Positions 7,048-63,679 of a stretch of DNA of 64,000 nt are shown piece after piece; position 1 is the first letter of the stretch; every line of letters starts with the position of its first letter. The notes beneath the pieces are model-generated. The model saw nothing but the letters and a program-made list of their open reading frames with translations, searched no databases and had not been told where the DNA came from. The stretch spans positions 75,702,001 to 75,766,000 of the forward strand of contig OX597818.1 of NCBI GenBank assembly GCA_951406725.2, read 5' to 3'. The position numbers and the translations under genes are program-made. The stretch is from Octopus vulgaris (lineage: Eukaryota).

Positions 7048-8259
7048 GTCATCCCAGAAATAATGCAGTTTTTTCAATTGCATGAACTAAAGGTCAGAGG
7101 GGGACAAGATAAACTACCTGCATCAACTTGCTATAAAAGCAGGTAGGAATTTTATCATGTTTTTATCCTTAGTGCAAGTTTTGAAGAGTGCAGTTCGATT
7201 TTAACAGTTATTTTTTCAAATCTATAATGGAAGTGACAAAGTAGCATCTTTGGTATATTTCACTTTATGAGTTCAATAAAGGCAGCAGCGAAAAGGGAAG
7301 TGTAAGGAATATTAATGCAGTATATGGGGATCAGACAATAAGCATAAGCCAGTGTCAACAGTGGTTCCAGAAACCACAGCCTAGAAGACGAGCCTCGTTC
7401 TGGAAGGTCTGTAGAGTTCAATGAGGATGTCCTGCAAACTCTGATGGAACAAAATCCTATCATAACTGTTGGGGAACTAGCAGAGAAGCTTGGATTTGAC
7501 CATCAGAAAAGTCGACAAATTGGGTCAAAGGGTCCCTCACAAACTTTCTTAGTTTAATCACATGCAGAGAGTGAATGTGTGCTCTTCTTTGCTATCATGT
7601 CTCTCGAATGAACTTTTTTTGGACCAAATAGTGACTGGTGACAAGAAATGGATTCTCTATAAAAATGTCGAGCACCAAAGACAATGGGTAGAGAAAGGGG
7701 ACTCACTGTTACCCCAAGCTAAAGGTCTCCACCCAGCTAAGGTGTTGTTATCTATTTGGTGAGACATGAAAGGTTTAGTTCACTATGAACTTTTAAGCCC
7801 AAACCAAACGATAACAAAAGAGATCTACTAAGAGTAGCTTAAGTCAGCACTAGAAGAAAAACAACCAAATTTGGTTTCAAGACAAAAGGTGTTTTTCCAT
7901 AAGAATAATGCTCGGCCACATACAGCAAGGATGACATTCCGAAGGCTGGAGCAGTTTGAATGGAAAAAGGATGTCCCACTCACCATATTCACTGGACATT
8001 GCCCCATCTGATTATCTTTTTTTATTGTCTTCAAAATCATTTGAACAGAAAAAAATATGAATTCTGTAGATGAGGTCAGAACAGTACTGGAAGACAAAGT
8101 GAATTTTGTAAGAGGGACCTTGCAAGTCTACCAGATAGATGGAAGAGCATTGTAGAAAATTAAGGAGGGTATATTTTAGATTAAAAAAAACTTTATCGTA
8201 ATTTTGAAAAATAAAAGAAGTATAAAAAAAAATCACATTATTTATGTGATGACCCAATA
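7048..8259 (+). mobile_element. Decayed mariner transposon
   Basis: TIR remnants gtcatcccagaaataatg / cattatttatgtgatgacccaata; transposase fragments (LEDEPRSGRS, LDQIVTGDKKWILY) with stops and frameshifts. Confidence 0.88.
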
Positions 8260-8379
8260 TATGTATACATATTGCTTTGTATAGTTATTGTCTTATCATC
8301 TCGTAACATTTCTTTGATAAACACATGGATGGTAGTTAAATAAAGCATCAAATAAATTCCTGCAATTCTTTCCTGACAG

Positions 8380-8456
8380 GTTATCTGCAAGACATGTAAT
8401 CACATTCGAGACTTGGATCTTTGTCGAGATCCTTATTTGAACCGAGAGACTCTGGG
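8380..8456 (+). CDS. POLE: POLE coding exon, first half of CysA zinc finger (VICKTCNHIRDLDLCRD)
   Basis: cag/gtaagc; C-x2-C...RDLDLC motif; phase 0/2. Confidence 0.96.
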
Positions 8457-8880
8457 GTAAGCCACTGATGTAGTTTCCTTTCTTTGTCACATTTCAATTT
8501 TTTTGTTGTTGGATTGGACAGGGATTAATCCAAAACAATGTGAATAAGTAAGCAGTACATATATAAGCTAACTGAACGCTAAGGGATTAAATCAGCCATA
8601 TCCAGCCCAAATATTCAAATTGTTTTATCTTCAAACAGGACAGAGCAGGCCTCTCATGCCTACCCTGTACTGTCGTTCCAAAAGTAAACAATCACATTGT
8701 TGAAATCTTAAAACTATGATATAATGCTTGATTAATTCAAAACAAAGTGAATAAATAAGCATTATATTTGATTGGGTAATCTGAATGCTAAAAGTTTAAT
8801 GATTCATACTCTGTTTTGTTCATTAACTGTATTTTGTAATGTCTTTTTTTTTTCTATCTTTCCCATTTGTTTTTCCACAG

Positions 8881-9013
8881 TGCTACATGGTCATGTATCC
8901 AATGTCACACTGATTACGATGCAGCTGAGATAGAACACAGTCTAGTTGAGGTTATTAACCGCAAGTCTCTTGCCTATACCCTGCAGGATACCAGATGTGT
9001 GAAGTGTAAATTG
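8881..9013 (+). CDS. POLE: POLE coding exon, end of CysA and start of CysB (WSCIQC...LQDTRCVKC)
   Basis: ccacag/gtaagg; phase 2/0. Confidence 0.96.
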
Positions 9014-10453
9014 GTAAGGAAACCTTTCAGTCTTCTCAAAACTACATTTTTAGTCTTTCTTGTGACAAAGACAATGACAACAGCAACTACTACTACTACT
9101 ACTGTTGTTGTCTGGTATGTTTCCTCGGCCCAGATCTATCCAGATGGGGCAGACCTATCAAAGTTTGATATTAATTTTTGTTCCAAACACTTTAGTATTT
9201 AAACCAGCCATCATCATCATCATCGTTTAATGTCTGCCTTCCATGCTAGCATGGGTATCCATCCCAAATACCTGTTTTATGTTCAAACAGACCAGATCTG
9301 GCCTCTCACACTCACCCTACAGTGTCATTGCGAAATATAAACAAATCACATCAGTGAAATCTCAAAGCTATGAAATAATGCATGATCAGTTCAGAACAAT
9401 GCAAATAAATAAGTATTACATTTGACAGAGTAATCTGAACACAAAAGGGTTACCTTAATAAATTCTTCGTTATTTTCAAAATTAATTGAAACATCTCAGT
9501 CTTCAAAACTCAGCCTTTTAACTGCCAAATTAAATTTCTTGGTTATTCCACTAATGATATTAAATATCTAACCAAATAAAAAAATAGATTTGTTATTTTC
9601 TGCAAGTCATGTTACCTCAATAAACTTGACATATCTCACCAGAAAATAGTTTCAAACATGACATTATCAGCTCCTTCATGAGATTCAGATCTTATGATCA
9701 ACCTGCACCATACCTTTCCATGTCTTCAGTTTCCTTTCCTGTAGGTTCACTTGGCACTTCTTTGCTCAACTGTCACCCTCTGTACACATCACATATTCAT
9801 ACCAGTTTTCTCTCATGCATATAATTGCTGATTATTCTTATACTCTGCCTTCATACATCATCTACATTCAGTGTCCGAGTTTTCCTGCCATGTAACATTT
9901 TACTTTGAACACAAGCCTTGTACAATTTACCCCTTACTTGAACAGAGAAACCTTTGTTCAGTGCCATGTAAAAAATACTTGTGTCAGTGTCACGTTAAAG
10001 TACTTGTGTGGTGCTGTGTTAAAAGCACCCAGCACACGCTGTAAAGTGGTTGGTGGTAGGAAGGGCATCCAGCTGTAGAAACCAAGCCAAATCAGACTAA
10101 AACCTGGTGCAGTCTTCCAGTTTACCAGTTCCAGTCAAACTGTCCGACCCATGCCACTTTGGAAAACAGACGTTAAAAGATGAGATGATGAAAGGTAGCA
10201 TATTTCAACAGAAATATGGTAACAAAAGGCTTAAGATCTTGCTCTGACTAGTTAACCCTTAAACCTATGTATCTGAAGTTTTAGATATGACTGAGAGTAG
10301 TTCTTCCTGTTGCTATTAGGAGTAAATGCTGCAAGGGGAAAATGTAGGTGACAACTATTCATAGCTATCCAATATGACAAATAATGTCACACATTTTATC
10401 TGTCTGCCTGTCTTCCATGTCTAACAGTTTCTAAATATTATTTATTTCTACAG

Positions 10454-10563
10454 ATCAAAAATAACAACATGCAAAATTACTGCTCATGTGCATCTAGTTT
10501 TGAAAATGTCATTTCTCGAGATGCATTTCTATCTACCATGAACACCTTCTATGGAATTGCTCA
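10454..10563 (+). CDS. POLE: POLE coding exon, end of CysB (IKNNNMQNYCSCASSF...GIA)
   Basis: ctacag/gtgagt; YCSC motif; phase 0/2. Confidence 0.94.
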
Positions 10564-10624
10564 GTGAGTACATGTTTCACTTAACCTTTTAATTTTAGAT
10601 GTGTGTGTATGTGTATATAGATAC

Positions 10625-10853
10625 ATTGGGTTGGTGCATAATTATTGCGGCTTTTTCTCACATTTTATTCAACAAAAACATATTTAAATGACGGTCTGAC
10701 TATCTGCCAAGCAAATGGGAAGCAGTAATTGAAGTAGATGGTGAACATGCTCCGGAATAATCATTTAAAGATGTTTTTGTTACATGTTTTTATTGTTTTT
10801 GTTGAATAAAATTTGTTGAAAAAGAAGCCGCAGAAATTATGCACCAACCCAAT
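10625..10853. mobile_element. mariner-derived MITE
   Basis: TIRs attgggttggtgcataatt / aattatgcaccaacccaat; internal transposase C-terminal remnant LPSKWEAVIEVDGEH. Confidence 0.85.
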
Positions 10854-11100
10854 AGATAGACCCAGGAGTAGCTGTGTGGTTGAGAAGCTTGCTTCCCAAC
10901 TATGTGATCTTGAGCTCAGTCCTACTGTATGACTGTGTGTATATATTTAGATTTGTAGATGAGTGTGTATTTATGTCAGGTCACACTTAGTGTTACTGGT
11001 AACATGTAACCCAGTACAACCTGTCACATGGTAGGCCATCATTGACTAAGCTTGTGTGTTAAGGAGGGTAGTTTTCATTAGACATCCTAGGGGATGGGAA

Positions 11101-12081
11101 GCCTTTCCTAACGCCAACCACTCCAAGAGTGTAGTGGGTGCTTTTATGTGCCACCGGCACGAGGGCCAGTCAGGCAGTTCTGGCAACAACCACACTTAAA
11201 AGGTGTTTTTTTATGTGCTACCTGCACAGGAGCCAGTCCGGCGACACTGTCAATGACCACGCTCAAATTTTTTTCATGTGCCGGTAAAGCGACACTAGCA
11301 ACGATCATGCTTGAATGGTGCTTTTTACATTCCACTGGCACAGGAGCCAATCCATGGCCCTGGCAACAATCACGCTCAGATGTGCTTTTAAACGTTCCAC
11401 ATGCACGAGTACCAATCAGGCAGTGCTGTCATCGACCACATCAGCGATTTTGATTTGATTTCACTTGCCTCAATGGCTCTTCGCAAGACAATGTTTATTG
11501 TCCAATGAATGAGGCGTACTCATAAGTGGACTGGTTACACCCCACACTCGGATGTGCTTTGAATGTTCCACTGGTACGAGTGCCAATCAGGTGGTACTAT
11601 CATCGGCCACATCAGTGATTTTGATTTTACTTGCCTCAATAGGTCTTCACAAGCAAAGTTTATTGTCCAATGAATGAGGGGTACTCATAAGTGGGCTGGT
11701 TACACCCACTGGCATAGGCCACGGGCTATGGTCCCACTTGGCTTGTTGGGTCTTCTCAAGCACAGCATATCTCCAAAGGCCTCAGTAAGGCCCAATGTTC
11801 AAAGGCCATGCTTCACCACCTCATCCCAGGTCTTCCTGAGTCTACCTCTTCCACAGGTTCCCTCAACTGCTAGGGTGTGACACTTTTCCACACAGCTGTC
11901 TTCATTCATTTGTAACACATGACCATACCAGCGCAGTCATCTCTCTTGCACACCACATCTGATGCTTCTTAAATCCAACTTTTCTCTCAGGTCGCTTACA
12001 CTCTGTCGTGCTTGCACACTGACATTGCACATCCAGTGGAACATACGGGCTTCCTTCCTTGCAAGCTTACGCATGTCCTCA
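11101..12081 (-). mobile_element. RTE LINE 3' fragment
   Basis: Homologous to 2363-3556 (ORF end plus 3' UTR subrepeats), more diverged. Confidence 0.85.
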
Positions 12082-12231
12082 TTTGTACTTCCCATGTTGT
12101 CTTGGGGCTTCCTCTAAACCTAATATTTATAACAACAGAGAAGAAATATGTAAATAATGACACAAAAAATATCAACCATTTTTATAAAATTCATGCAAAT
12201 CTAATTAGTTTCCTTTCTTTGTTAATTGCAG

Positions 12232-12304
12232 ACATTATAATATGCAGCTGCTTCTAGAAACAGTTACATGGATCCTGAAGATGAATGATTCTTTGAACAG
12301 CTAA
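12232..12304 (+). CDS. POLE: POLE terminal coding exon (HYNMQLLLETVTWILKMNDSLNS*)
   Basis: ttgcag acceptor; matches the POLE C-terminus HY.M..LLET..W.L; TAA stop; AATAAA hexamers at ~12816-12861 and ~13811. Confidence 0.95.
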
Positions 12305-14214
12305 CTCAGTATTAACCATGAAGTTTGAGAGAGAGAAAGAGAGAAGTGTGAGAGGAGGATATGCATTCTATGAAGAATCATTTATTTCATTATTTATTTT
12401 GGCTTCTGAGATCTGTTATTTAGAACTTTTCTTTTAATGTTTTGGCATAGAGTGTGCTGTCTTTATTTCTAAGATTCAAAAGATTGGATTGATTTAAAAA
12501 AAATTTTTTTTTTTATAAATGTTTTGAGTGAATGTGAAATGACAAATTGTACAAAGCCTCTTGCATGTGTGTGTTGTATTGACACACATATGTTTATGTT
12601 AATATTTACATTCTGCACTTAGCTGAGCTATGGATGGTGTCGTATTGTCTTTTATTAACAACAAATTGTTAGTATTTTCCAAGGTTAGTTGAATGAAAAG
12701 GCTCTTTCTTGAAAAACAGGTACAGGTTAATGACAAAAACCTCCAGCTGTAAAAACAACATCTCAGTAATATGTATTCATTCAACCAATTTTTAATACCT
12801 ATGCTGGTATTAAAAATAAATAAAAACAAACGAATATAATAAAAAAGCAAATTAAATAAAAGTCAAATTGATGACATGGAAAAAATACCAAAGTGGATAA
12901 CATTTTTTGTGTAGTTTGATATCATATTGTCCTGGGTTCATATCTTGCTAAACTTAACTTAGCCTATCAATCCTCAAGTACTAATAGGAATGTCAGTAAT
13001 TGTAATGGACGAGGATTGATTAAGTCTATTATATATCTTTCCCAGATTAAGTAGCCTTGTGCTACTTAATCAGCTGAAATCATTAATATTCATTTGATGG
13101 GTAAAGCAGTGAGCTGGCAAAATGCTTAGTGGAATTTCGTCTGTGGATTCAAATGCCGCCAAGATCAGTAAAGTACTAGTTGAGCACTGGGGTCAATATA
13201 ATTGACTTAGCCCCTATCCTGGAATTGCTGGTCTTGTGGCAAAATTTGAAACCAATATTAGTTTGATGGTCACTATGGAATTAGACTATCAGCTCCTGAT
13301 GTACAAAGCTGCCAATCCCTTTAACTGAAGTCAATGCAGTTAAACATATTCACTTGTCTCCAAACAATGACACCATATGTTGCTTTAGAGTTCCTCTAAC
13401 TCCCTAGATCTACACATGGTTAGAGTAGGACTTTCTCTATGTCTGATCTCTATCATTGCTATCACATCTTTGATATTATAGTAGAGCTGTATGACAACCT
13501 CCATCACTACTGTCTCAGCTCTCTAACCTCCATCTCTATTACACAGCTCTGCATATCTCTACAATATACTCCTATTTATACCTTAAAGATTGAGAGAAAT
13601 CCTAATGTCAGATACCCTATAGCAATATTTAGAATAATTCACCATTATTTCTGTGAACTAATGTCTGTGGAACTCTAATGTTTAGGAACTGACGTCAGGA
13701 ATTTTGGTTATGTTCTGTTATGTTTTTTATCTAAAATATATCCAAGCATTTGAGAATTGTAAATAATATTCTTAAGCTATTTTAAGAAATCACTTTGTTT
13801 ATAACTTGTAAATAAAACAAATTTATTGAAAATCTAATTTTAAAATTATCATTTTTGTCTTATTTGATAAATGTCATTGATTCTTGTTTTCAAACTTTGA
13901 TGATGCATGTTAGTGAGCCATGGTCACAATGCAGAAGATAGACAAAAGGGGGAACAAAGCAAGCCTGAGCCACTGATGTGTAAAATCAGTGTACATGATG
14001 ATGTGGTACAGATGAGCTGAGAAAAAAACTGGATGTAAAATAAATCAGTTGTAATGTGCAAGAACAATGGCTATGTAATGTATATGGATTATGACAAGTG
14101 AAGAAGGTACCAGAAGGAACCTATGGAGGGGAAAACCCAAGAAGACATTGTGGAAGTGGTGAAGGCTAATCTCTGGAAGCTGAACCTCACAAAGGAATGC
14201 AAGTGATAGAATAC

Positions 14215-14410
14215 TGCGGTAAATGTAAAGCTAAAGGATTTATGGATTAAAGTATATGTGGTAAAGGATACATAGGATTACAGTAAAGGATATATGGATT
14301 AAGGTAAATGTAAAGGATATGTGGATTACAGTAAAGGATACATATATTAAGGTTAATACAGTAAAGTATGTATAGATTAAGATATTTACAGTAAAAGATA
14401 TATAAAGGGT
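14215..14410. repeat. Degenerate ~20-25 bp minisatellite (taaaggatatatggattacag-like)
   Basis: Recurrent gtaaaggata...ggatta units. Confidence 0.6.
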
Positions 14411-14529
14411 TTAAAAGTCAGTGTAATAAAGTCTCAGTGAAGGTAATGATATTTACAAGTTATACATCACACTTTTAACAACTGTCATGTTTATTATACC
14501 AAATAATTTCAATCCAGTTCTATATTTAA

Positions 14530-15607
14530 CCCTTTCGTTACTATATTTCTGACCAAAATACACCCCTTATGTGTTTCAATTAATTTCTAACATAATTATA
14601 AATTTAGTCTGGTTTCATTAAACAACTATAACTTTTTTATTTATCAATATATTAACGTGAATTTTGGAAGATAATTTAATGAAATGTTCTCAACCAATTC
14701 TATACTATAATTTTTGTCACAAAGTGACTCTAATTGCAGGTAGATACAGGTAAATTCAACAAAATATAAAATTATTAAAATTTTGTTCAAACATCGCTAT
14801 AGAAAATAGGTTATTAGCTAATATTCAATTGGGTATACAACAAAATTTTACGAAAGAATTTGTTATTCTGGGTAACTTTCTGATACCCATAATAATATTT
14901 ATGGCAAAATAGTCTTAATTTCATTTAAGGTTATGGGAAACCACTAACTATCATTTCTTTCGTTTTGTTTACATTTAGCGTAACGGTTCGTTTCTGCCGT
15001 AATGATTTCAAATAGGCTCATTCGAAAAAGTAAAAAGAAATAGTCTAAGGCTTCACTTTTCTGGGAAAGTCTGTGGCTTGGTCCAGTTTCTTCAGAAAAA
15101 TCACCGAAAGAAACAGTTTTAAAATTTTCACTCCATTCAGGTGCCAATTCATTTTCTTTATCGCTGTCGGAGCTCTTGGATTCACTGTTTTCACTTTCGG
15201 TAAATGAAACATCGGATTCATTATCAAATACCTCGTGCTTTTTTTTTTTTCAGTCATAGAGTTAGATTTATGAAGATCTTCAGTAGAAAATCCTTCGAAT
15301 TCTGACTCGCTTCTTGATATAATGAAATTCGTATCCATTTTTTGTCAGAATTACAAATTTTGAAGACACAATAGGAACAAATTTCGGAAAAAAATCTCCC
15401 AAAATTCACGGAATTAAAATTACACTTTGATTTTTGTACAAAACTGTAGTTGAACTCTTTACGAAGTATAATACGTATTTTCACAAATGTACTAAAGAGA
15501 TTTGCTCTGATATTCTCATTTAAATATGAATAGGTAAATTCGGGCAGCTTTGGGCAGTTTGGTCACATTAACCAAAATCTTTTTCGGGCGGTTTGGTAAC
15601 GAAAGGG
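14530..15607 (-). mobile_element. Internally deleted piggyBac transposon
   Basis: TTAA target-site duplications (14526-29, 15608-11); perfect 12-bp TIR CCCTTTCGTTAC; minus-strand acidic N-terminus plus 'LDYFFLLF...LFEIITAETNRYA', typical of piggyBac/PGBD transposase. Confidence 0.92.
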
Positions 15608-15670
15608 TTAAGAGATGAAGAATTATTTACATTTGATGGATATTTGTCCTCATCTAGTTTGTTGTTAACA

Positions 15671-16293
15671 AGCATGACCTTTGAACTTTAGGCCTCACCA
15701 AGGAAATGACTAGTGACTGAGACCTTTGGAAATATGCTGTGCTTGAGAAGACCCAGCAAGCCAAATGAGACCATAACCTCGTGGCCTATGCCAGGAGCAT
15801 AACCAGCCCACTTATGCATACCTTTTCCTTCTTTGGACACTAAACTCTGCTTGCGAAGACCTGTTGAGGCAGGTGAAATCAAAATCAAATTCGATGACTG
15901 GCATCCGTGCCAGTGGCACATTAAAGGCAGCATTCGAGTGTGATCGTTGCCTTACTGGCGCTAGTGCCCATGCTAGTAGGGTGCCAAGAGCACAATCCGA
16001 GCATGATCGTTGCCAGAGCAGCTAACTGGCTTCCATGCCGGTAGCACGTAAAAGGCACCATTCGAGCATGATCGTTACCAGCGTCGCCTTACTGGCACCT
16101 GTACCGGTGGCATGTGGAAAAAGATTTGAGTGAGGTCGTTGCCATTACCGCCTGACTGTGCCAGTGGCACGTAAAAAGCACCCACTACACTCTCGGAGTG
16201 GTTGGCGTTAGGAAGGGCATCAAGCCCTCAGTCAAAATCGTCCAACCCATGCTAGCATGAAAAGTGGAAGTTAAACGATGATGATGATGATGA
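15671..16293 (+). mobile_element. RTE LINE 3' fragment
   Basis: ORF end, 3' UTR and (GAT)n tail homologous to 57228-58835. Confidence 0.88.
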
Positions 16294-17389
16294 CAACTTT
16301 TCGGCTGATATACCCTCCAGCCTTCATCAGGTGTCTTGGGGAAATTTCGAACCTGGGTTCTAATTCCTAGGGTATTTTTCGATGTTATTATTCAGGAATC
16401 AAACTTGGGATCTTGGGGTTAAGAGCGTGGGCTACTAACCCCAAGATTCCGAAATCGATTCCAGGCAGTGACCTGAATACTAATAATAATAATAATAACA
16501 ACAACTGAAAAAATACCTTAGGAATGAGAACCCAGGTTCGAAATTTCCCCAAGACACTTGATGAAGGCTGGAGGGTTGTGTTACCAACAGACGAGGGCAA
16601 ATATCCATCAAATGTAAATAATTTCAATCCATTTTAATTTTGGAGCTCTCTCCTTTGTCCAGCCAATTTTCATTAAGGCTAGTGGTTTCAATTAAAAGTT
16701 CTTTTTGTCTCACTGCATTTAATTTTAAGTACAATTGAATTTAATGTTGTTTTTTTTTAACTGGGACATCACAGTAACTTGGTAAGCTTTCAACTTTGAT
16801 GAAATAACAATAAATTATTAAATAAAAATTAACTTGTATTATACAATAATAACACTGTAACACGATTTTTATCCTTGGGTAGTAAGTTTCCCATTTGCTT
16901 ACCCATAGAAAGTAGGAAAAAATGGCTAATATTTCCTTCAAACTTTGCTTTTATTACATTTATTCAAACCTCAAAGAATCCTTCTCAACACATGTTTGTG
17001 ATGCCCTCTCTTTACTCCTCATGATCAGAGATGCACATATTGTCAGCCACTAAGGGACATGCTTAAGTGTTTAAGGTCAAGTAACTGACAAGCAAGTCCA
17101 TGGTATTGAGCAGAATATTTGCTATAATATTTCTGTTTCTACAACTCAGCACTGAATCTGCCTGAAATGTAATGGAAAATAGGTCAGTTTCAAAATATTG
17201 ATGTCCAAGTCACAAAAGCAAAGTTTGAAGTGAATAGTAGTCATTTCTTTTGATTTCTAGATAGAAACAAATGATTGATTAATTGGTTAGATATTTAACC
17301 ACTTAACTAACAAGAAAGAAATTATATTGAACCAACATGTGTGTTTATTATTATTGACATAAACTCTTTGAGTGAGTTTAACTATTATA

Positions 17390-31389: not shown

Positions 31390-33680
31390 ATCATCATCAT
31401 CATCATCATTTAACGTCTGTTGTCCATGTTGGCATGGGTTGGACGGGTTGACCAGGGCTGGCAAGCTGGGGGGCTGCACCAGACTCCAGTCTGATTTGGC
31501 ATGGTTTCTACAGCTGGATGCCCTTCCTAACACCAACCACTCCAAGAGTGTGATGGGTGCTTATACATGCCACCAGCATGGGTGCCATTTGCCTGACACC
31601 AGTATTTGCCATGATTCACTTTCATGTGCCACCAGCATCAGCCACTTTACCTCCATGAGGCCCAACACTTGAAAGGTGCTTTTTATGTGACACCAGCATC
31701 AGCTACGCCTATGATTTCAATTGGCTTGATGGGTCTTCTCAAGCACAGAATATAGCCAAAGGTCTTGGTCACTACTCAATGCCTCTATGAGGCCCAAAGT
31801 TCAAAGATCATGCTTCACCACATCGTCCCATGTCTTTCCACATCTATTTCTACCACAGGTTCCCTCCACAGTTAGAGATCAGCACTTCTTTACACAACTG
31901 TCCTTGTCCATATGCATCACATGACCATACCAGCACAGTCGTCTCTCTTGTACACTACATCTGATGCCACTTTTGCCCAACTTTTCTCTCAGGATGCTTA
32001 CACACTGTCAAACATGCACACTGATATTGCACATCTAGTGAAACATACTAACTTCATTTCTTTCAAGCCTGTGCATGTCCTCAGCTATCACAGCCCATGT
32101 TGCACTGCTATGTAGCATAGCTATTTGCACACAGGCATCATACAATCTGCTTTTCACTCTGAGGGAGAGTCCCTTTGTAACCAGCAGAAGTAGAAGTTTT
32201 CTGAACTTTGCCCAACCTAATCTTATACTCACAGCTACACCCTTAGAACATCCACCTCCACTACTAACTTGGTCACTTCTATATCGGAAGCTATCTCCTA
32301 CATCTAGATTATCCCCTGGCAGTTGATGGAGTCTATTTTCTGTACATTTTATGTGTTTTTTTGTACCTGTGCATCTTCCACACACAAAAGCTTTTTTCCA
32401 TATTAACCTTCCTTTGATATTGCTGCACCTCTTCTGCACCCATAGCTTACACCAGGTACATCTTATGTAGTTTTTACCTATGTCTTTTCTACAGATCAAG
32501 CAGGGCCATCTACCTGAAGGGATTTGTGATTTGTCTGCCTTCCTACTTACTAAGACTTTGATTTTTGCTAGATTAACACTAAGGTGCTTCAATTCTAGAC
32601 CTTGCTTCCATACCTGAAACTTCTCTAGTTCTGGTAGTGATTCAGCTAGAAGAACAAGGTCATCAGCATAGAGGAGCTCCCAGGGGTAACCTGTCTTAAA
32701 TTCCTCTGTTATTGCCTGGAGGACTATGATGAACAAGAGGGGGCTGAGGACTGATCCTTGGTGAACCCCTACTTGTACTATGAATTCTTCGTTATACTTG
32801 TTGCCAACTCTCACCTTCCTGGTAGCATTCCTGTTCATAGCTTGTGCACCTCTCACCAACCACTCTTCTATCCCTAGCTTCCTCATTGACCACCAGATAA
32901 GGGATCAGGGGATCCTGCTAAAGGCTTTCTCCAAGTGAACACAAGCCAAGTACAGAGGTTTATATTTGGTTGTGTATTTGTCCTGCAGTTGCCTTACCAG
33001 AAATATTGCATCAGTGGTGCTTCTCCCTGGCACAAAACCAAATTGCATCTCATCTAAAATAACTCTCTCCCTAATTATTTGGTCTATGACCCTCTCCATA
33101 ACTTTCATCACCTGATCCAACAATATGATACAGCTGTAATTATTTCTATCTAAGGCATCACCATTACCTTTGTTGACTATCATGCTGCAACACCAATCAT
33201 TGGGTATGACTCCTTCATGAACCACCTGATTTACAATATGGGTGATTAGACCATAACCCACACCACCAAATATTTTAAGCATCTCAGTGGTGATTCTTTA
33301 TGGGCCGGGGGGCTTTCTCTGTCTACATATCCTTAATTGCTTCATCTACCAAGGTACTGTTGATTCGGATAGCTGGTCTCTCAGTCGGGTCAACATTTGG
33401 CTGACTCTCCTCCTCTCGTTCATTCTCCTTGTTCAGCAGTCTTTCATAATGGCATTTCCAAGTCTCTTTCTTTGCAGAATCATTAAATGCAAGTTTATCA
33501 CCATCCATGCGAACACATTTCTCTCCTATGACATCACAATTCTCTTTCACACACACTCTCTTGCAATTTGAAACACTTCAAGTCTTTGGTCCTCACATCA
33601 CTGAACATAGGCAAACTTCTTTTCTGCTTCTCCCTTGACTAGAAATATCTGTCACCTATCTTCCCTTCTGGCTGTCTGTG
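31390..33680 (-). mobile_element. RTE LINE fragment with reverse transcriptase domain
   Basis: ORFs 32905-33282 and 32035-32886: QFGFVPGRSTTDAIF, GVHQGSVLSPLLF, LLYADDL; frameshifted. Confidence 0.93.
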
Positions 33681-36293: not shown

Positions 36294-37429
36294 CAGGGGT
36301 TGGACAAAATAATGAGAACACCTAGCATCATAGCATCATAATTTTGAAATATCTGTAATACTGTCAAAAGTTTGTTTGTTTTTTGATTTATTATTAGTGT
36401 TGCTTAATATGTTTTGCTAAAATTGCTGTTTCTTTGCAGATATCATCAGAAAAAGGTAATTAAAATTCATTAAAATGACAGATTTATCAGACTTTCAAAG
36501 AAGTGAAATTGTTGGTGCTCATATGGCAGGTGCTAGCGTAACGAAAACAACCGAAATGTTTGGTGTATCAAGAAGTACTGTCTTGAAAGTAATGACAGCC
36601 TTTGAGAAAGAGGGGAAAACCTCCTCCTCAAAACAAAATTCAAGAAGAAAACCCAAACTTTTAGATAGGGACCGTCAGATTCATATGCGAATTGTTAGAA
36701 TCGATCACAAAAGTACAGCTCCCAAAATTACTACAGAGCTTAATGACCACCTCAAGAACCCAGTTTCCACAAAAACTGTTCGACGGGAGCTGCATTTCAT
36801 GGGAGGGCTGCAATCAGAAAACCACTACTTTCAAAAACAAATGTTATAAAGTATTTAGAGTGGAGTAAAAACCTACAGAATTAGTCCCTAGAGCAGTGGA
36901 AGAATGTTATTTTCTTGAACAAGAATCCATTACCTCATTTCCGACCACCGACTGAGTATATCTTGGAAATCTGTCGGCCCAATAGTTTACCTTCATGGCA
37001 GAATTAATAGTCGAGACTATTTAAGCATTTTATCTGATCAAATTCATCCTATGGTTGTGGAGCTGTTTCTGGAAGGAAATACAATCTTTCAAGATGATAA
37101 TGCACCAATTCACACAGCTAAAGTTGTTACTGAATGGCACAAGGAACATTCTAGTTAAGTTGAACATCTTATCTGGCTACCACAGTCCCCAGATCTCAAT
37201 ATTATTGAACATTTACAGTGCATTTTAGAAAAACAAGTAAGGAGTCGATATCCTCCACCATCATCACTACAAGAACTGGAGATTGTTTTAGCTGATGAAT
37301 GTACAAAAATTCCTTTGGAAACAATTCAAATTTTGTACGAGTCCATACCTTGTAGAATTCAAGCTACCTCATATTAAAATAAATTTGTTTGAAATTTTAA
37401 GGTGTTTCCTTTATTTTGTCCAACCCCTG
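36294..37429 (+). mobile_element. Tc1-family transposon, pseudogenised
   Basis: TA target-site duplications; TIR CAGGGGTTGGACAAAATAA; ORF 36475 MTDLSDFQRSEIVG (paired-like HTH); QDDNAPIH and PQSPDLNIIEH remnants. Confidence 0.93.
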
Positions 37430-37925: not shown

Positions 37926-38369
37926 GTTTGTAATTATGACAATTTTATTCTAAAAAATAAAACGAAGTAAGAAGTGTATGTGATAAGATTTTACCATTAA
38001 TGAGTGTTATGTAAGTTTGTAGAGTTCCAAACTTATTTAATCCAAAGAAATTGTATTTAGTTATAATTTCTATGTGAATATATCTTCAATGGTCACAAAT
38101 CTCCAATGGTTTACTGGACATTACTTAAGTTACAAGAACTGACCACTATGATACATAAAATTGATCTGGCCTAACTGAAATAATTTTGATTTGTCTTTAT
38201 CAGTAAAGTTCTGTATAGATGTGAGGTAATAGTCAAATATTTGTAGCTGTGGGCTATGTACATCAGAATATATATATAGCTGTGTGGTTGTGTGATGTGG
38301 CTATCAGAATGTATATACTTGTGTGGTGTATATGTGTATATGCATATGTGTGTGTATGTATGTATGTAT

Positions 38370-39866
38370 GAATCGAAGGGCCTTAGAATCAACATAGCTA
38401 AAACCAAAGTCTTAATAAGTAGGAAGGCAGACAAACCACAAATCCCTTCAGGTAGATGGCCCTGTTTGATCTGTAGAAAAGGCGTAGGTAAAAACTCCAT
38501 AAGATGTACTCAGTGTAAGCTATGGACACATAAGTGCAGCAATATCAAAGGAAGGCTAACTGAGAAGATAGTTTTGGGATGTGGCAAATGTTCAGGAGCA
38601 ATAAACACTGAAAATGTGCAGAGAACAGCTTCTGTCACATTCCAGGGAGAAAAACTACAAGTTGTTGATAGCTTCCATTACCTAGGTGACCAAGTCAGTA
38701 GCTGGGGTGGAGGCTCTGTAAGTGCAGCTGCTACAATAAGAATAGCCTGGACAAAGTTCAGAGAGCTCCTACCTCTGCTGGGAACAAAGGGCCTCTCACT
38801 CAGAGTAAAAGGTAGATTGTATGACACATATGTACGAACAGCCATGCTACATGGCAGTGAAATATGAGCCATGGCTGCTGAGGACATGCGTAAGCTTGCA
38901 AGGAATGAAGCCAATATGCTCTGTTGGATGTGTAATGTCAGTGTGCATACACGACAGAGTGTAATTGCCGTGAGAGAAAAGTTGGACTTGAGAAGCATCA
39001 GATGTGGTGTGCAAGAGAGACGACTGCGTTGGTATGGTCATGTGTTGCGAATAGATAAGGGCAGCTGTGTAAAAAAGTGTCACACCCTAGCAGTTGAGAG
39101 AACCTGTGGAAGAGGTTGACCCATGAAGACCTAGGATGAGGTGGTGAGGCACGACCTTTGAAAACTGGGCCTCTCTGGGGCAATGACTAGTGACCAAGAC
39201 CTTTGGAGATATGCTGTGCTTTAGAAGACCCGACAAACCAAGTGAGATCATAGCCCATGGCCTATGCCAGTGAGTGTAACCAGCCCACTTATGAATACCT
39301 CTCATTCATTGGACAATAAACTTTCCTTGTGAAGACCTATTGAAGCAAGTGAAATCAAAATCAAAATCGCTGACGTCGCCAATGATAGTACCACCTGATT
39401 GGCACTTGTGCCAGAGGAACATTAAAAGCACCATCCAAGTGTGATCATTGCTAGGGCCGCTGATTGACTCCCTTGCCAGTGGCACATAAAAAGCACCATT
39501 CGAGTGTGATCATTGCCAGCGTCACCTTACTAGCACATGGGCCAGTGGCATGTGGAAAACAACATTTGAGCGTGGTCGTTGCCAGTGCTGCTGGACTGTC
39601 TTCTGTGCAGGTGGCACATAAAAAACACCTTTTGAGCATGGTCATTGCCAGTACCACCTGACTGGCCCTCGTGCCAATGACATGTAAAAGCACCCACTAC
39701 ACTCTTGAGTGGTTGGCGTTAGGAAGGGCATCTAGCTGTAGAAACTCTGCCAGATCAAATTGGAGCCTGGTGCAGCCTTCTGGCTCGCCAGTCCTCAGTC
39801 AAACTGTCCAACCCATGCCAGCATGGAAAGCAGACTTTAAACGACAACAATGACGATGATGATGAT
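38370..39866 (+). mobile_element. 5'-truncated RTE LINE
   Basis: ORFs 38292-38867 and 38871-39119; (GAT)n tail. Confidence 0.92.
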
Positions 39867-39942
39867 TTATATATATATATATATATTTATGGAGATGTAC
39901 TTGCATAGTGAGTGACTTGATCTGAGATCGTGTGCTGGAACG

Positions 39943-40233
39943 AAAACAACTGCAGCGTGGAAGGTGTTTATAAGCCATTTAAGAAACACACAAAAACCGT
40001 TAGATTCACTTCAACATTTAAATTTGATTTGTCAAAATATTTTTGTCGCTTTGAGACCGTGACCTGTTCACTGACAAAACTTGGTGCTGCACAAAGTTTT
40101 GTCAGTGAACAGGTCACGGTCTCAAAGCAACAAAAATATTTTGACAAATCAAATTTAAATGTTGAAGTGAATCTAACAGTTTTTGTGTGTTTCTTAAATG
40201 GCTTATAAACACCTTCCATGCTGCAATTGTTTT
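39943..40233. repeat. Near-perfect 140-bp-arm palindrome containing a G3-C8 hammerhead-like motif
   Basis: Arms 39943-40082 and 40094-40233 with an 11-bp spacer and only a few mismatches (the mirror ORFs in the track reflect this). Confidence 0.9.
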
Positions 40234-40833
40234 TGTTATATATACATATATATATATAATATATCATTAATAATCAACATATGTTACACAGTGACTCATG
40301 GGTTGAATTTCATATGTTGCCAATGCAAAAATCTCTCAGTACTTGAGTCCCTCTGTAACTTCTACTGATAATTAATATATATTTATATACACTCATATTT
40401 TGAGTTAGGTTTTCGTGTTTATACCATCAAACACACACACACACATATCATTTAACTTGTTTTGGGCAAATGTTTCAGAATGCACTGTGAACAGCTCCTA
40501 TTCTTCTTCTTGTCGGCTACCACCTGTTATTCCCATCTTCCTGTGTAATCCTATGGGATGGTTATGCATGTAGAACTCCTTTCAGCTTCGGATGAATATA
40601 ATAACAAAGATGACTTGTGGAGGGAGAGTTTTAGAATTTATTAATGCATTGTGATATATATGTTTCTGCATCTGACATGCTCATTTGTGAGGACATTTTC
40701 AGATTCATAGGATATTATTAAAGATTATTTATAATATCTAATAATGCATATTCATCCTAAGCTATAAGAAGTTCCATGTTTGTGTGTGTATCCCTTAGAG
40801 GCTTTAAACACCTCTAACTTATACCTGCATATG

Positions 40834-52230: not shown

Positions 52231-52599
52231 TTATACAGTTCTATATTTAAGAGATGAGGAATTATGTACATTATTTACATTTGACGGATATTTGTCCTCA
52301 TCTTTGTTGTTAACACAACGTTTCAGCTGATATACTCTCCTGCCTTCATCAGTTGTCTTGGGGAAATTTTGAACCTGGGTTCTCATTCCTAAGGTATTTT
52401 TCGATGTTATTATTATTATCATTATTATTATTGTTATTATTCAGGTCACTGCCTGGAATTGAAAAATACCTTAGGAATGAGAACCCAGGTTCGAAATTTT
52501 CCCAAGACACCTGATGAAGGCTGGAGGGTATATCAGCCGAAACGTTGTGTTAACAACAAACAAGATGAGGACAAATATCCGTCAAATGTAAATAATGTA
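52231..52599. mobile_element. Fold-back element with inverted arms and hammerhead ribozyme
   Basis: Arms 52267-52402 and 52461-52599; (TAT)n and B-box remnant in the spacer. Confidence 0.85.
52506..52551 (+). ncRNA. Minimal type-I hammerhead ribozyme
   Basis: GACAC-CUGAUGA-A-GGCUG(loop)CAGCC-GAAA-C-GUU^GUGUU: stem I GACAC/GUGUU, stem II 5-6 bp, palindromic AACGUU stem III. Confidence 0.8.
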
Positions 52600-52639
52600 A
52601 ATATAATTTATTTAAAGAATTTTTTTTTAATGTAATGTA

Positions 52640-57227: not shown

Positions 57228-58835
57228 AAGAATTCCGGGTGGAGGTTGGGGTCCACCAAGGCTCAGTCCTCAGCCCCCTCCTATTTATCATAGTCCTCCA
57301 GGCAATAACGGAGGAATTCAAGACAGGATGCACATGTGAGCTCCTCTATGCTGACGACCTTGCTCTAATTGCTGAATCACTATCAGAACTCGAGGTGAAG
57401 TTTCAGGCGTGGAAGCAAGGATTAGAATCAAAGGGCCTTAGAGTCAATCTAGCTAAAACCAAAGTCCTAATAAGTAGGAAGGTAGACAAATCTCAAACAC
57501 CTTCAAGTAGATGGCCCTGCTCGATCTGTAGAAAAGGCGTAGGTAGGAACTCTATAAGATGCACCAAGTGTAAGCTATGGACACATAAGAGGTGCAGCAA
57601 TGTCAAAGGAAGGCTAACTAGGAAGATAGTTTTTGTATGTGGCAGATGCTCTGGTTCAATAAAGACTGAAGATGTGCAGAGACCATCTTCCGCCACATTC
57701 CAGAGAGAAAAACTTGAAATAGTTGATAGTTTCCGTTACCTAGGTGACCAAGTCAGTAGCAGGGGTGGGTGTATCGAAAGTGTAACTGCTAGAGTAAGAA
57801 TAGCCTGGGCAAAGTTTCAGAGAGCTCTTACCTCTGCTGGTGACAAAGGGCCTCTCACTCAGAGTAAAAGGCAGACTGTATGACACATGTGTGCGAACAG
57901 CCATGCTACATGGCAGTGAAACATGGGCCGTGACTGCTGAGGATATGCGTAAGCTCACAAGAAATGAAGCCAGTATGCTCCGTTGGATGTGTAATGTCAG
58001 TGTTCATACCCGACAGAGTGTAAGTGCCTTGAGAGAAAAGTTGGACTTGAGAAGCATCAGATGTGGTGTGCAAGAGAGACGTTTGCGCTGGTATGGACAC
58101 GTAGTAAGAATGGATGAAGATAGTTGTGTGAAAAAGTGCCACACCCTAGCGGTTGAGGGAACCTGTGGAAGAGGTAGACCCAGGAAAGCCTGGGATGAGG
58201 TGGTGAAGAACAACCTTCGTGCTTTAGGTCTCACCGAGGAAATGACCAGAGACCGAGACCTTTGGAAGTATGCTGTGCGCGAGAAGACCCGTCAGGACAC
58301 GTGAGGCCATAACCCATGGCCCCTACCTGGGACGTAGTCAGTCCACCTGTGCATACCTTCCTTCTTGGGACACTTGTGAAGACCTGTTGAGGCAAGTGAA
58401 AATCAAAATCAAACCAAATCAAAATCGATGAACATCAATGGAATTTGTATCTTTGTGGTACCAGTGCCGGTGGCACATAAGAAAACCATCCGAACGTGGC
58501 CGTAGCCAGTACCGCATCGACTGACCTCCGTGCTGTGGGCACGTAACAAACACCATCCGATCAAGGCCGTTCGCCAGCCTCGTCGGGCACCTGTGTCGGT
58601 GGCACATAAAAAACACCATCCGAGCGTGGCCGTTCGCCAGCCTCGTCTGGCACCTGTGTTGGTGGCACATAAAATCACCCACTACACTCTCGGAGTGGTC
58701 GGCGTTAGGAAGGGCATCCAGCTGTAGAAACACTGCCAGATCTGACTGGCCTGGTGCAGCCTTCGGGCTTCCCAGACCCCAGTTGAACCGTCCAACCCAT
58801 GCTAGCATGGAAAGCGGACGTTAAACGATGATGAT
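57228..58835 (+). mobile_element. Young 5'-truncated RTE LINE (RT C-half, C-terminus, 3' UTR)
   Basis: ORFs 57239-57883 and 57840-58304 joined by one frameshift; GVHQGSVLSPLLF, LLYADDL; (GAT)n tail. Confidence 0.95.
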
Positions 58836-61001: not shown

Positions 61002-63679
61002 TGTGGGATGATGTCAGCAGCTGGGGAGCTGACAGGAACTTGGGGCTGATTGGAAGAGGAAGGGGCAGCAGTGACATGTGCGCAGGCAGGGGAGGATTGG
61101 GCCTTTTTGATCAGGGTAGCAGAGAGAGTTGGGCATGTGAGCGCTTTGTCAAGGTAGGGGAAAAGCAGCTGCTATTTATAGCGTTCGGGTCGGGCCATGT
61201 GGAAGGGTGCATTACCATTGACGAAGAGAAAGTAGGTGTCCTTATTTCAAATCTCCTGCATACACTACAAGCTATTTTGGCGCTCCATATAAGACGTCAC
61301 CACAATGGCAACGAAAATCAGGCTCGCCAGCGACATTATCAGACCCTTTAATGGTGAGGGCGATGTAGTGGCCTGGATTCGTAAAATCAGGCTGGTGGGA
61401 GACTGCAAGGCATAAGCCATGTGGTGAGCCTTATGACACTGTATTTGGAAGGGAGTGTGTTGACTCTATATCTTGAGATGGACGAGGAAGAATGTCTGAG
61501 TGAGGAGAAGATTGAGCAACATCTGAGAGACGCTTACACCAAGTGTGCGTACACAGCCTTTGCTAAGCTGGGCACGATTAAATGGACGGGAGAACAGGTG
61601 GATGAATACGCAGCGGAGGTTCGAAGGCTAGCTACGCTGGCTGGGTTTACAGGAGAAGGCCTGGAGAGAGCAGCATGACTGGCGTTCGTAAGTGGGTTCC
61701 CTGTAGGGATTCGACTGCAACAATTGCCCGGGGACAAAAAGATGGCACTGAGCGAACTTGTGACTCAAGCCTGCGTGTTGGCGCGAAACACTGGACAGAA
61801 GGTGATAACGAAGGCGGTAACGGAGGTGCATAAAGACGGTCAACGGCGGGAGAAAGATGCAAAGAAGCCTACCATGCAATGACAGCGGCCGTTTTCAGGC
61901 CGGTGTTTTAGATGTCAGGGGTCGCACATGGCAAGGGAGTGTACACAACTGGAGCCCGTCTGCTATCGATGCAGGCAGACAGGGCACATCGCCCATGATT
62001 GTGACCAGGGAAACGACCGTGGGAAAGTTGCTGCTCCTTGAACTTTCCTTGCAAACGAGTAAAGGCGCTTTTGGAGACGCTGCCCTTAATTGATGTGGTC
62101 TGGCTTCTTTAAGCAGATGACTTTAACCACATCAATGTCGCCGAATTAGATGCGGTGCTGAAAGGGGTGAACTTGGCCCTGAAATGGGGGCTGCCCTCAA
62201 TCGAAATCCAGACGGATTCAGCCACTGTGCTTGGCTGGGTAGGATCAGTGATCACTGGTGAGAGGAGAGTTTGGATGAAAGGTGCCGCAGAGATGTTGGT
62301 TAAGCACCATCTAGGAGTTCTAGGAGAATTGATTGCTGAGTTCAGACTGAAGCTGAACATGTTTTTTGTGCCTTCGGAGAGAAACAAGGCAGACGCACTG
62401 ACCAGGGTGAAAAAGGCGTGGTTGGAGGAACCGGAGGAGGCACAGAAAGGGATAGCTGTGGCATGTCAGTTGGATGACTCTGAACTGAAGAGACTGCATG
62501 CTATGCATCACCTGGGTGTGGACAAGACCCTGTATCTGGCGAAGAAAATTGATGCTGACGTTAATAGGAGAAGCAACCGGAAAGTGGTCAGGAGCTGTGA
62601 CAGGTGTCAGTCCATTGACCCTGCTCCATGTGGGCATGAGCAAGGAAACCTTTCAGTGGAGCACAACTGGAAAAAGCTAGCTGTAGATGTGATGCACTAC
62701 CATCAGGGAATGTATCTCTCCATGGTTGACTGCAGGTTGGGCCAGCTGGCCATTTGGAGGGGGTGGAGAACAGGCACTGCTGACGAGATTGCGCAGATTT
62801 TGAACGGGATATATTTAGAGAGGGGTCCCGTGGAAGAACTGCTAATGGACAATAGGGCGGTGTTTTGTTCAGAAGCACTGAGGGATATGCTCGACCAGTG
62901 GAAAGTGCATCGCTTGTTCAGAGTAGCATATAGGCCGAGTGGTAACAGAATTGTAGAGAGGCACCATCGGACAGTCAAGTCCATAGCGGAAAGAGGGTAC
63001 ATTTCGCCACTAGAAGTAGTTTTTTGGTACAACATGTCTCCCCAATCTGGACAAGCCGAAGAATCTGTGCCATACAGAGCTGTATTTAAATATGAATGGA
63101 GGCACCCGAGTAAAGCGCCAGAGGGCCACGAGGAAGAGAAGGGACCCACTTGCGTGAAAACAGGGGAGGAAGTCTGGGTTAAGCCACCGAAGGCGCACTG
63201 TACGACTCAGTGGAGCAGAAGAACGGTGATGGCGGTCAATTCCAGAAACAACGTCTCTGTGGATGGAATGCCGCGACATGTCTTGGACCTTCGCAGGATT
63301 GTCGCTTCGTTGGATGACAATTGTGAAGAGAAGGAGAACAAGGTGCCCTCCCAGTTGGATGGTGGATTTCAGTGTGGAGTAGAGAGAATGTGATCTTTAA
63401 GATCAGGGTGGCGTGTGGGATGACATCAACAGCTGGGGAGCTGACCGGAAGAGGAAGGGGCAGCAGTGACGCGCATGCAGGCAGGAGAGGATTGGGCCTT
63501 TTCGATCGGGGTAGCCGAGAGAGTTGGATGTGTGAGCGCTTTGTCAAGGTAGGGGAAAAGCACCTGCTATTTATAGCATTCAGGTCAGGCCACGTGGAAG
63601 GGTGCATTACCACTGGAGAGGTCTCCATCAACGAAGAGAAGGTAGGTGTCCTTATTTCAAATCTCCCACATACACCACA
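61002..63679 (+). mobile_element. Gypsy-like LTR retrotransposon, internally deleted (gag, RNase H, integrase; protease/RT missing)
   Basis: LTRs 61002-61269 and 63414-63679 (TGTGG...CA); flanks ctttg/cttta; gag from 61305 with two CCHC knuckles; ORF 62155-63393 carries RNase H, HHCC and DDE integrase motifs. Confidence 0.9.

What the first reader, a model, noticed from the sequence alone, without database searches (positions are those of the whole stretch)
39943..40233. Palindrome hiding an apparent G3-C8 hammerhead ribozyme
Each arm, independently of the large palindrome, reads UUUGUCA-GUGAACA-G-GUCAC GGUCUCAAA GC(G/A)AC-AAAA-AUAU-UU^UGACAAA (+ arm 40098-40148). This gives a perfect 7-bp stem I and the same spacing as the 52.5 kb ribozyme, including the extra base after A9, plus a palindromic AAUAUU stem III. 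The core GUGAACA is CUGANGA with both 3 and 8 swapped (G3-C8), which preserves the known tertiary Watson-Crick pair. Two CpG-type reversions (GUCGC and GAC-GAAA) would restore a perfect stem II and G12. As it stands, both arms have A at position 12 and are predicted inactive.
Basis: partly seen in the sequence, partly recalled or inferred. Interest (0 to 1): 0.8.

Follow-up and report, generated by a model that had tools for sequence, protein, structure and literature searches.

The report
Swapped-core hammerhead in abundant animal retroelement
This palindrome is two head-to-head copies of an abundant short animal repeat, likely a piece of a Penelope-type jumping gene, whose typical copies carry a complete self-cutting "hammerhead" RNA layout with two paired core letters swapped (G3-C8 instead of C3-G8), a version that standard searches miss and that is predicted, but not shown, to cut RNA.

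Summary
Confirmed and extended. The palindrome is real (149-nt arms, 6 mismatches), and each arm reads as a minimal type I hammerhead with G3-C8, A12 and a broken stem II. Sequencing runs of three organisms show a high-copy repeat family (8,166-16,504 contig records laid). No C3 allele reaches 4% in any of 4 runs. With those letters the hammerhead is the lowest-energy fold; 2 of 100,000 shuffles give such a motif. The (TA)n target, the one-sided 47-nt tail and the recurrent inverted junctions match Penelope-like insertions; no Penelope ORF was found. This copy is predicted dead: A12, and each ribozyme sits in a ~145-bp duplex with its own antisense. Cleavage is untested; in the laboratory, C3G/G8C partly rescues a Penelope hammerhead (PMC11167929). 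My searches found natural U3-A8 but no natural G3-C8 in print; one key paper could not be read. This scan noted G3-C8 earlier in phages and protist retroelements. New variant of a known kind.

The parts
39868..39890 (.). (TA)n tract on the left of the insertion (likely target site)
   Evidence: TRF, 11.5 copies; family 3' end maps to 39891/39892 by loose ends with mixed flanks
39892..39938 (-). 47-nt 3' extension ('tail') present on the left copy only
   Evidence: Covered by family contigs and reads; loose ends at 39891/2, 39944 and 39951 show alternative 3' ends; no mirror image in the right arm
39939..40087 (-). Left arm: sense copy of the element on the - strand
40028..40078 (-). Left hammerhead: stem I 40078-72/40034-28, G3 40071, C8 40066, extra G 40064, stem II 40063-59/40049-45, position 12 = 40044 (A here, G in the family), AAUAUU 40041-36, predicted cut between 40035 and 40034
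40084..40091 (-). Family 5' end (TGCAGCAC); its first 7 letters are nearly self-complementary and form the centre of the palindrome
   Evidence: Loose ends behind 40091 with mixed flanks in X1, X3 and X23; depth falls about 60- to 100-fold beyond it in the 3 DNA runs
40089..40237 (+). Right arm: inverted copy without the tail
40098..40148 (+). Right hammerhead: G3 40105, C8 40110, A12 40132, stem II mismatches at 40116 and 40129, predicted cut between 40141 and 40142
40237..40264 (.). (TA)n tract on the right of the insertion
   Evidence: TRF, 14.5 copies

Best explanation
The palindrome is two head-to-head copies of a roughly 200-nt high-copy repeat, likely the ribozyme-bearing end of a Penelope-like retroelement, and the family's majority form carries a complete minimal type I hammerhead layout with a G3-C8 core pair that is predicted to self-cleave slowly, and only as a dimer, while this copy has lost G12 and a stem II pair and is predicted to be dead. 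Shown: the family, its ends, its majority letters, G3 fixed among copies 80% or more alike, the (TA)n flanks, the one-sided tail and recurrent inverted junctions. Inferred: a Penelope RT/GIY-YIG protein encoded elsewhere reverse-transcribed the RNA, starting at one of two 3' sites (with or without the tail), nicked a (TA)n tract and joined an inverted second copy at the nearly self-complementary 5' end. Inferred: two RNAs pair through AAUAUU to form stem III; G3 pairs with C8 as C3 does with G8, the 2'-OH of residue 8 acts as general acid and G12 as general base, with the cut after UU. Both arms share three letters that are rare in the family (40026, 40044, 40060), so both were likely copied from one already decayed template, or were homogenised later; they have since diverged at 6 of 149 sites.
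For:: C at 40044 in 96.8/92.4/93.6% of summed contig depth (X1/X3/X11) and in 637 of 832 RNA reads; C at 40060 in 88.7/89.3/88.5% and 534 of 757 reads. No C>G change of any place at 4% or more in 4 of 4 runs, so C3 is below 4%. X11's only G>C change is at 40083, so G8 is below 4% there; with majority letters, the 51-nt span folds as the hammerhead (stem II pairs P about 0.99, against 0-0.49 as it stands), and the stems persist in the 200-nt element (stem II 0.98, stem I 0.53-0.87); 2 of 100,000 shuffles give the strict motif, 0 with a 7-bp stem I; the same descriptor finds the canonical 52.5-kb hammerhead as its only window hit. Architecture fits PMC8557442 (inverted 5'-truncated copy at the 5' end, 30-40-bp tail on one end, (TA)n targets) and PMC4209133 (extra base after A9, G10.1-C11.1, palindromic stem III, dual ribozymes on opposite strands). 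Joints to 40088-40095 from six different points, and to 40079 from 40025-40030. C3G/G8C partly restores cleavage in an anole Penelope hammerhead (PMC11167929) and generally (PMC8495972).
Against: No cleavage data. No Penelope ORF among the 33 stop-to-stop frames of 120 aa or more in the window (6 of them scanned against Pfam), and loose ends beyond 40091 are mixed, so no parent element is shown. No pile-up of RNA ends in X23 (table 6), though a fragmented cDNA library is a weak test and the anole study saw none either. The best cofold of two majority copies is a stem II swap (-30.6) rather than the double hammerhead (-25.4). Among the rows shown, the core is not clearly less variable than the rest, and 61 variant rows were not shown, so G8 in X1, X3 and X23 and A3/U8 alleles are not excluded. 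The extra base is G, where the published consensus has H. Contig depth is not a copy count.
Confidence: 0.72

Rival explanations
1. Same origin, but the G3-C8 hammerhead is an inactive relic: the family spread as a passenger because Penelope insertion does not need cleavage.
For: Catalytic mutants did not affect insertion in vitro (PMC11167929). This very insertion appears to come from an A12 template. G3-C8 gives only partial rescue. No RNA ends pile up.
Against: The swap needs two separate transversions that restore a pair, while G12, stems I-III and the extra base are all intact in the majority form. The one common stem I variant (40032, 14-25% of DNA depth) keeps pairing as a U-G wobble.
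Confidence: 0.18
2. A miniature inverted-repeat DNA transposon (unit 39951-40091) with short terminal repeats that happens to contain, or has captured, a hammerhead-like motif.
For: The 5' end and the site at 39951 are inverted near-copies, and they pair in the fold (P 0.6-0.75 over 6 bp). Similar numbers of loose ends at 39951 and 40091 (61/60 contigs in X1, 90/70 in X3).
Against: Many copies extend to 39891. Inversion breakpoints vary. No target duplication can be seen beyond the (TA)n. The apparent end at 39951 is probably clipped by a private mismatch at 39950. Hammerheads with this layout are a Penelope hallmark.
Confidence: 0.08
3. Chance likeness inside a hairpin, for example a microRNA precursor.
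For: Rfam gives only microRNA-type hits here and no hammerhead hit.
Against: All hits are below their gathering scores (65 vs 90.8, 44.9 vs 80, 37.1 vs 70) and reflect the hairpin. Rfam also missed the canonical 52.5-kb hammerhead. Prediction confirmed in 1 of 36 ways; 2 of 100,000 shuffles.
Confidence: 0.02

Closest known systems
Minimal type I hammerheads (min-HHRs) in the pseudo-LTRs of Penelope-like elements (Cervera and de la Pena 2014, PMC4209133)
   Same: Type I layout, extra base after A9, G10.1-C11.1, palindromic stem III needing a dimer, U-rich 5' and AU-rich 3' flanks, pairs of motifs on opposite strands, mostly without an ORF.
   Different: G3-C8 core: of the 56 motifs in their Fig. 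S3, 53 begin CUGA, 3 UUGA and none GUGA. Stem I is 7 bp rather than 4-5, the extra base is G, and no parent ORF is shown.
Natural U3-A8 hammerhead variants (Perreault 2011, PMC3088659; Schistosoma Cercyon elements, PMC4209133)
   Same: Natural compensatory change of the 3-8 pair, about 1,300 hits in one genome.
   Different: U3-A8 keeps pyrimidine 3 and purine 8 (two transitions); G3-C8 reverses them (two transversions).
Laboratory C3G/G8C double mutants (PMC11167929; PMC8495972; PMC3884650)
   Same: Identical core letters; partial rescue of cleavage.
   Different: Engineered, not natural; here it is the majority form of a family found in five coded organisms.
Penelope-like insertions with an inverted 5' copy, tail and (TA)n target (Craig 2021, PMC8557442)
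   Same: Inverted arrangement, tail on one end, (TA)n flanks.
   Different: Three 9-10-letter words of this family gave 0 hits in that paper's consensus file (line breaks could hide a match), so it is not one of its listed Naiad families; tail is 47 nt rather than 30-40.

Membership tests
Minimal type I hammerhead (canonical core) | C3 and G8 | tested here: not met
   G3 and C8 in both arms; no C>G allele at 4% or more in 4 of 4 runs. Filed as a variant, not a canonical member.
Minimal type I hammerhead (canonical core) | Watson-Crick pair between 3 and 8, with U4 G5 A6 and A9 | tested here: met
   GUGAACA; no variant of 40065-40071 among the 40 rows shown, 61 rows unseen
Minimal type I hammerhead (canonical core) | G12 A13 A14 | tested here: met
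   Met by the family majority (92-97%); not met by either arm of this copy (A12)
Minimal type I hammerhead (canonical core) | Stem II closed by G10.1-C11.1 | tested here: met
   5 of 5 Watson-Crick pairs with majority letters; 4 of 5 (left) and 3 of 5 (right) as they stand
Minimal type I hammerhead (canonical core) | A15.1-U16.1, H17 and stem I | tested here: met
   A...U, U17, 7 of 7 Watson-Crick pairs
Penelope min-HHR | Extra base between 9 and 10.1; palindromic stem III | tested here: met
   Extra G (published consensus H); AAUAUU
Hammerhead ribozyme | Self-cleavage after H17 | not testable with these tools
   No pile-up of ends in one fragmented RNA-seq run; needs an in vitro assay or cyclic-phosphate sequencing
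Penelope-like element | Linked RT plus GIY-YIG ORF | tested here: inconclusive
   None seen in the window; no genome held, so a parent elsewhere could not be sought
Penelope-like element | Inverted 5'-adjacent copy with variable truncation | tested here: met
   This locus, and opposite-strand joints from 39982, 39985, 39996, 40008, 40020 and 40044 to 40088-40095
Penelope-like element | Optional 3' tail on one end; AT-rich or (TA)n target | tested here: met
   39892-39938 on the left only; (TA)n on both sides
MITE | Fixed terminal inverted repeats with target-site duplication | tested here: inconclusive
   Short inverted match between the 5' end and 39951, but several 3' ends, and no duplication can be told inside (TA)n
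microRNA precursor | Rfam family at gathering score | tested here: not met

The most novel reading that the evidence does not exclude
An actively cleaving natural G3-C8 hammerhead has been kept by selection in a Penelope-derived family that reached thousands of copies in several related animal species. Such swapped-core ribozymes form a hidden class that CUGANGA-based searches miss, including in Penelope lineages said to lack hammerheads, and the slower core tunes cleavage so that uncut RNA survives for reverse transcription.
Probability: 0.4. Interest if true: 0.78.

Novelty: new variant of a known kind. Interest (0 to 1): 0.62.

Why it matters
The C3-G8 pair is treated as nearly invariant in natural hammerheads. 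U3-A8 is the natural alternative I found in print, and G3-C8 appears there only as a partly rescued laboratory mutant. A high-copy animal family whose majority form has G3-C8 is a natural experiment. It gives many copies with which to test selection on the swapped pair, it shows that descriptors starting with CUGA (used in PMC8557442) undercount ribozymes, and it bears on the open question of whether Penelope elements need cleavage at all: this insertion seems to come from a template that had already lost G12.

Tried and rejected
No whole genome is held, so the suggested genome-wide BLAST was replaced by laying public runs. No second copy of the element in the window. Rfam at E up to 1: no hammerhead family anywhere in the window, including the canonical one. 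Metagenome scan with an 18-letter word: 33 loci, none extends into the element (best 27 of 29 letters), read as chance. Core-plus-stem II pattern: 0 viral contigs; 8 bacterial loci, none with stem I or the AUAU-UU part, read as chance. No RNA holder on record was listed. Look-up of earlier scan notes by sequence, by place and by 'octopus' words: nothing. The idea that this is the end of a published Naiad, or that Naiads generally hide G3-C8 cores: three family words gave 0 hits, and none of the first 15 of 30 GTGAACA and first 15 of 19 GTGATCA places looked like a hammerhead by eye; GTGACCA, GTGAGCA and reverse strands were not searched, so the general idea stays open. Copies starting at the cut site: 3 long contig pieces end at 40031-40035 with other sequence beyond (records 3, 9, 19; 3 and 19 probably one locus) out of 24 shown of about 39,000. 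Too few, and template switching in the 7-bp stem I would give the same. Purifying selection on the core: not demonstrable from the 40 rows shown. Lunse, Weinberg and Breaker 2017 and a 2007 RNA paper on exchanges of this pair (recalled, not seen) are not held.

Full report
Observation. The window holds an inverted repeat with arms 39939-40087 and 40089-40237, 143 of 149 positions complementary around a 1-nt centre. Four of the six mismatches are CpG transitions lost on the right arm; the other two are private to the left arm. Each arm, read outward from the centre, has the order of a type I hammerhead: 7-bp stem I, GUGAACA, one extra G, a 5+5 stem II round 9 nt, A12-A-A, the self-complementary AAUAUU, U17, and the second strand of stem I. 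A relaxed descriptor (any Watson-Crick 3-8 pair, G or A at 12, up to two stem II mismatches, stem I of 7 or more) finds only these two sites; 1 of 40 block-wise shuffles of the window gave a hit. The neighbour at 52511 is a canonical CUGAUGA minimal hammerhead of a different family in a similar outward-facing palindrome. Rfam detects neither.

The family. No genome is held and the window has no second copy. The stretch 39889-40237 is held by 20 listed runs from 14 studies and five coded organisms. I laid the left flank and left arm (39889-40097) on three DNA contig sets (X1, X3, X11; organisms A, B, D) and one raw RNA run (X23, organism D) at 80% likeness. 16,504, 14,088 and 8,166 contig records and 1,872 reads were laid. 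Loose ends with mixed flanks (72-122 contigs at 39891 alone, 866 further rows not shown) show a dispersed repeat of at least hundreds and probably thousands of copies; the tool's depth is not a copy count. The element runs, on the - strand, from 40091 to about 39892. The host is an animal; I take it for an octopus from its recalled repeat landscape, and no call names it.

Inside the 51-nt ribozyme span, among the rows shown, the family majority differs from this copy at exactly two places: 40044 (C, giving G12; 96.8, 92.4 and 93.6% of summed depth, 637 of 832 reads) and 40060 (C, restoring the stem II G-C pair; 88.7, 89.3 and 88.5%, 534 of 757 reads). The span has nine TG/CA sites that could be decayed CpGs, and of the 36 pairs of restorations only this pair gives the motif with a 5-bp stem II. 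No C>G change reaches 4% at any place in any of the four runs, so C3 is rare or absent. In X11 the single G>C place is 40083, so G8 is also below 4%. In X1, X3 and X23 one, two and four G>C places are among the 61 rows not shown, so G8 is not formally excluded there, nor are A3 or U8. A canonical-core sister family under 80% alike would have been missed.

Structure. With the majority letters the hammerhead secondary structure is the minimum-energy fold of the 51-nt span (-13.8 kcal/mol; stem II pairs P about 0.99, against 0-0.49 for the left arm and 0-0.04 for the right arm as they stand), and it persists in the 200-nt element (stem II 0.98, stem I 0.53-0.87). A strict descriptor (G12, perfect stem II, palindromic stem III, stem I of 4 or more) matches the majority form, finds the 52.5-kb ribozyme as its only window hit, and matches 2 of 100,000 dinucleotide shuffles of the element, none with a 7-bp stem I. 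Stem III can form only between two molecules through AAUAUU; the double hammerhead scores -25.4, and a stem II swap scores -30.6. A transcript across this locus holds one ribozyme and its antisense and folds into a 144-145-pair hairpin of about -230 kcal/mol. With A12 as well, this copy is predicted dead; G12 is the general base (PMC6155905, PMC8495972; passages).

What kind of element. The insertion sits between two (TA)n tracts. The left copy has 47 nt more at its 3' end than the right, and the family has alternative 3' ends near 39891/2, 39944 and 39951. Other copies show an inverted piece of varying length joined to the 5' end: opposite-strand joints from 39982, 39985, 39996, 40008, 40020 and 40044 to 40088-40095, mostly in one or two contigs each, and 23 RNA reads for 39985. 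An inverted 5'-adjacent copy, a tail on one end and (TA)n targets are the described anatomy of Penelope-like insertions (PMC8557442, passages), and the tail reflects two internal start sites of reverse transcription (PMC11167929, parts 1-2 of 4). The extra base after A9, G10.1-C11.1, the palindromic stem III and paired motifs on opposite strands are the marks of Penelope minimal hammerheads (PMC4209133, parts 1-2 of 4). Against full membership, no Penelope ORF was seen in the window, and flanks beyond 40091 are mixed, so most copies look short and non-autonomous, as is argued for animal retrozymes (bioRxiv 2026.07.22.740005, part 1 of 5). A MITE reading rests on a short inverted match between the 5' end and 39951 and is less likely.

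How it most likely works. Shown: sequence, family letters, ends. Inferred: RNA from family copies pairs in trans or in tandem through AAUAUU; G3 pairs with C8 in place of C3-G8 (pair described in PMC11300833, passages); the cut falls after UU. Single C3G or G8C changes abolish, and the double change partly restores, cleavage of an anole Penelope hammerhead, which also needed the element's protein and was not required for insertion in vitro. I therefore expect slow, possibly protein-assisted cleavage. A Penelope protein in trans would insert copies at (TA)n. Both arms here share three letters rare in the family (40026, 40044, 40060), so they were probably made from one already decayed template joined at the nearly self-complementary 5' heptamer; later conversion between the arms is the alternative.

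RNA. X23 reads come mostly from diverged copies (8 of 1,872 at 99% or more, 908 under 90%), in both orientations (944/928), with no pile-up of ends. This says nothing firm on cleavage or on this locus. Of 7 shown places at 1.2% or less in all three DNA runs but 11-25% in RNA, 6 are A>G or T>C, and such places number 45 in RNA against 9 in X11 DNA (G>A plus C>T: 32 against 17; Fisher p 0.043). This suggests A-to-I editing of fold-back transcripts, but the individuals differ and transversion places also rose (17 against 3).

Novelty. Natural covariation at 3-8 is in print as U3-A8 (PMC3088659, passages; PMC4209133). In the latter's Fig. S3, 53 of 56 motifs begin CUGA, 3 UUGA and none GUGA (supplement parts 1-2 of 3). 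Searches showed G3-C8 only as a laboratory mutant. Passages of PMC6765202, PMC11014351 and PMC6962438 added nothing on it. Lunse et al. 2017, the largest survey of Penelope hammerhead variants as I recall it, is not held and could contain it; most subscription papers were not searched. Earlier unchecked notes of this scan report G3-C8 in phages and, with an added core base, in protist Penelope elements; I did not test them and do not count them as support. What is new here is a clean swap as the majority form of a high-copy animal family.

Verdict. Observation confirmed, interpretation supported. A new variant of a known kind; interest 0.62. Activity is the open point and is a simple experiment.

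Noticed in passing
window 52263-52603 (core at 52511, +): Canonical CUGAUGA minimal hammerhead in an outward-facing palindrome of a second, unrelated family (about 84% arm identity, ATT repeat in the centre); decayed relatives at 15622-15670, 16293-16392 and 16455-16639.
   Followed up: partly
window 39940, 39980, 40002, 40008, 40019, 40037 (run X23): A>G or T>C in 11-25% of RNA reads but 1% or less of DNA depth in three runs: likely A-to-I editing of family fold-back transcripts; individuals not matched.
   Followed up: partly
window 40025-40030 joined to 40079: Recurrent opposite-strand joints at stem I: copies in which the inverse of the 3' cleavage product runs straight into the ribozyme core, extending stem I into a long hairpin. 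Could reflect cDNA ending at the cut site or a template switch in the stem.
   Followed up: partly
window 40032 and 40074: A common stem I variant (14-25% of DNA depth) gives a U-G wobble; one contig appears to carry the partner change at 40074, a possible compensatory pair (tables 3 and 5c).
   Followed up: no
window 40080-40091 (-) and 39951-39962 (+): The element's 5' end and a site near its short 3' end are inverted near-copies that pair in the predicted fold; role unknown.
   Followed up: partly
window 8840-9202 (+): Likely host exon of DNA polymerase epsilon (Pfam zf_DPOE_2, E 1.5e-4, below cut-off).
   Followed up: no
window 32035-33297, 38280-38867, 57230-58304, 36460-36849, 62113-63393: Fragments of a LINE reverse transcriptase family, a Tc1-like transposase and an LTR-type integrase region; not linked to the finding.
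   Followed up: no
PMC8557442 supplement, 3' end of Naiad_Obim: By eye, a CUGUUGA...GAAA stretch with a short stem near the end may be another altered hammerhead; not tested.
   Followed up: no
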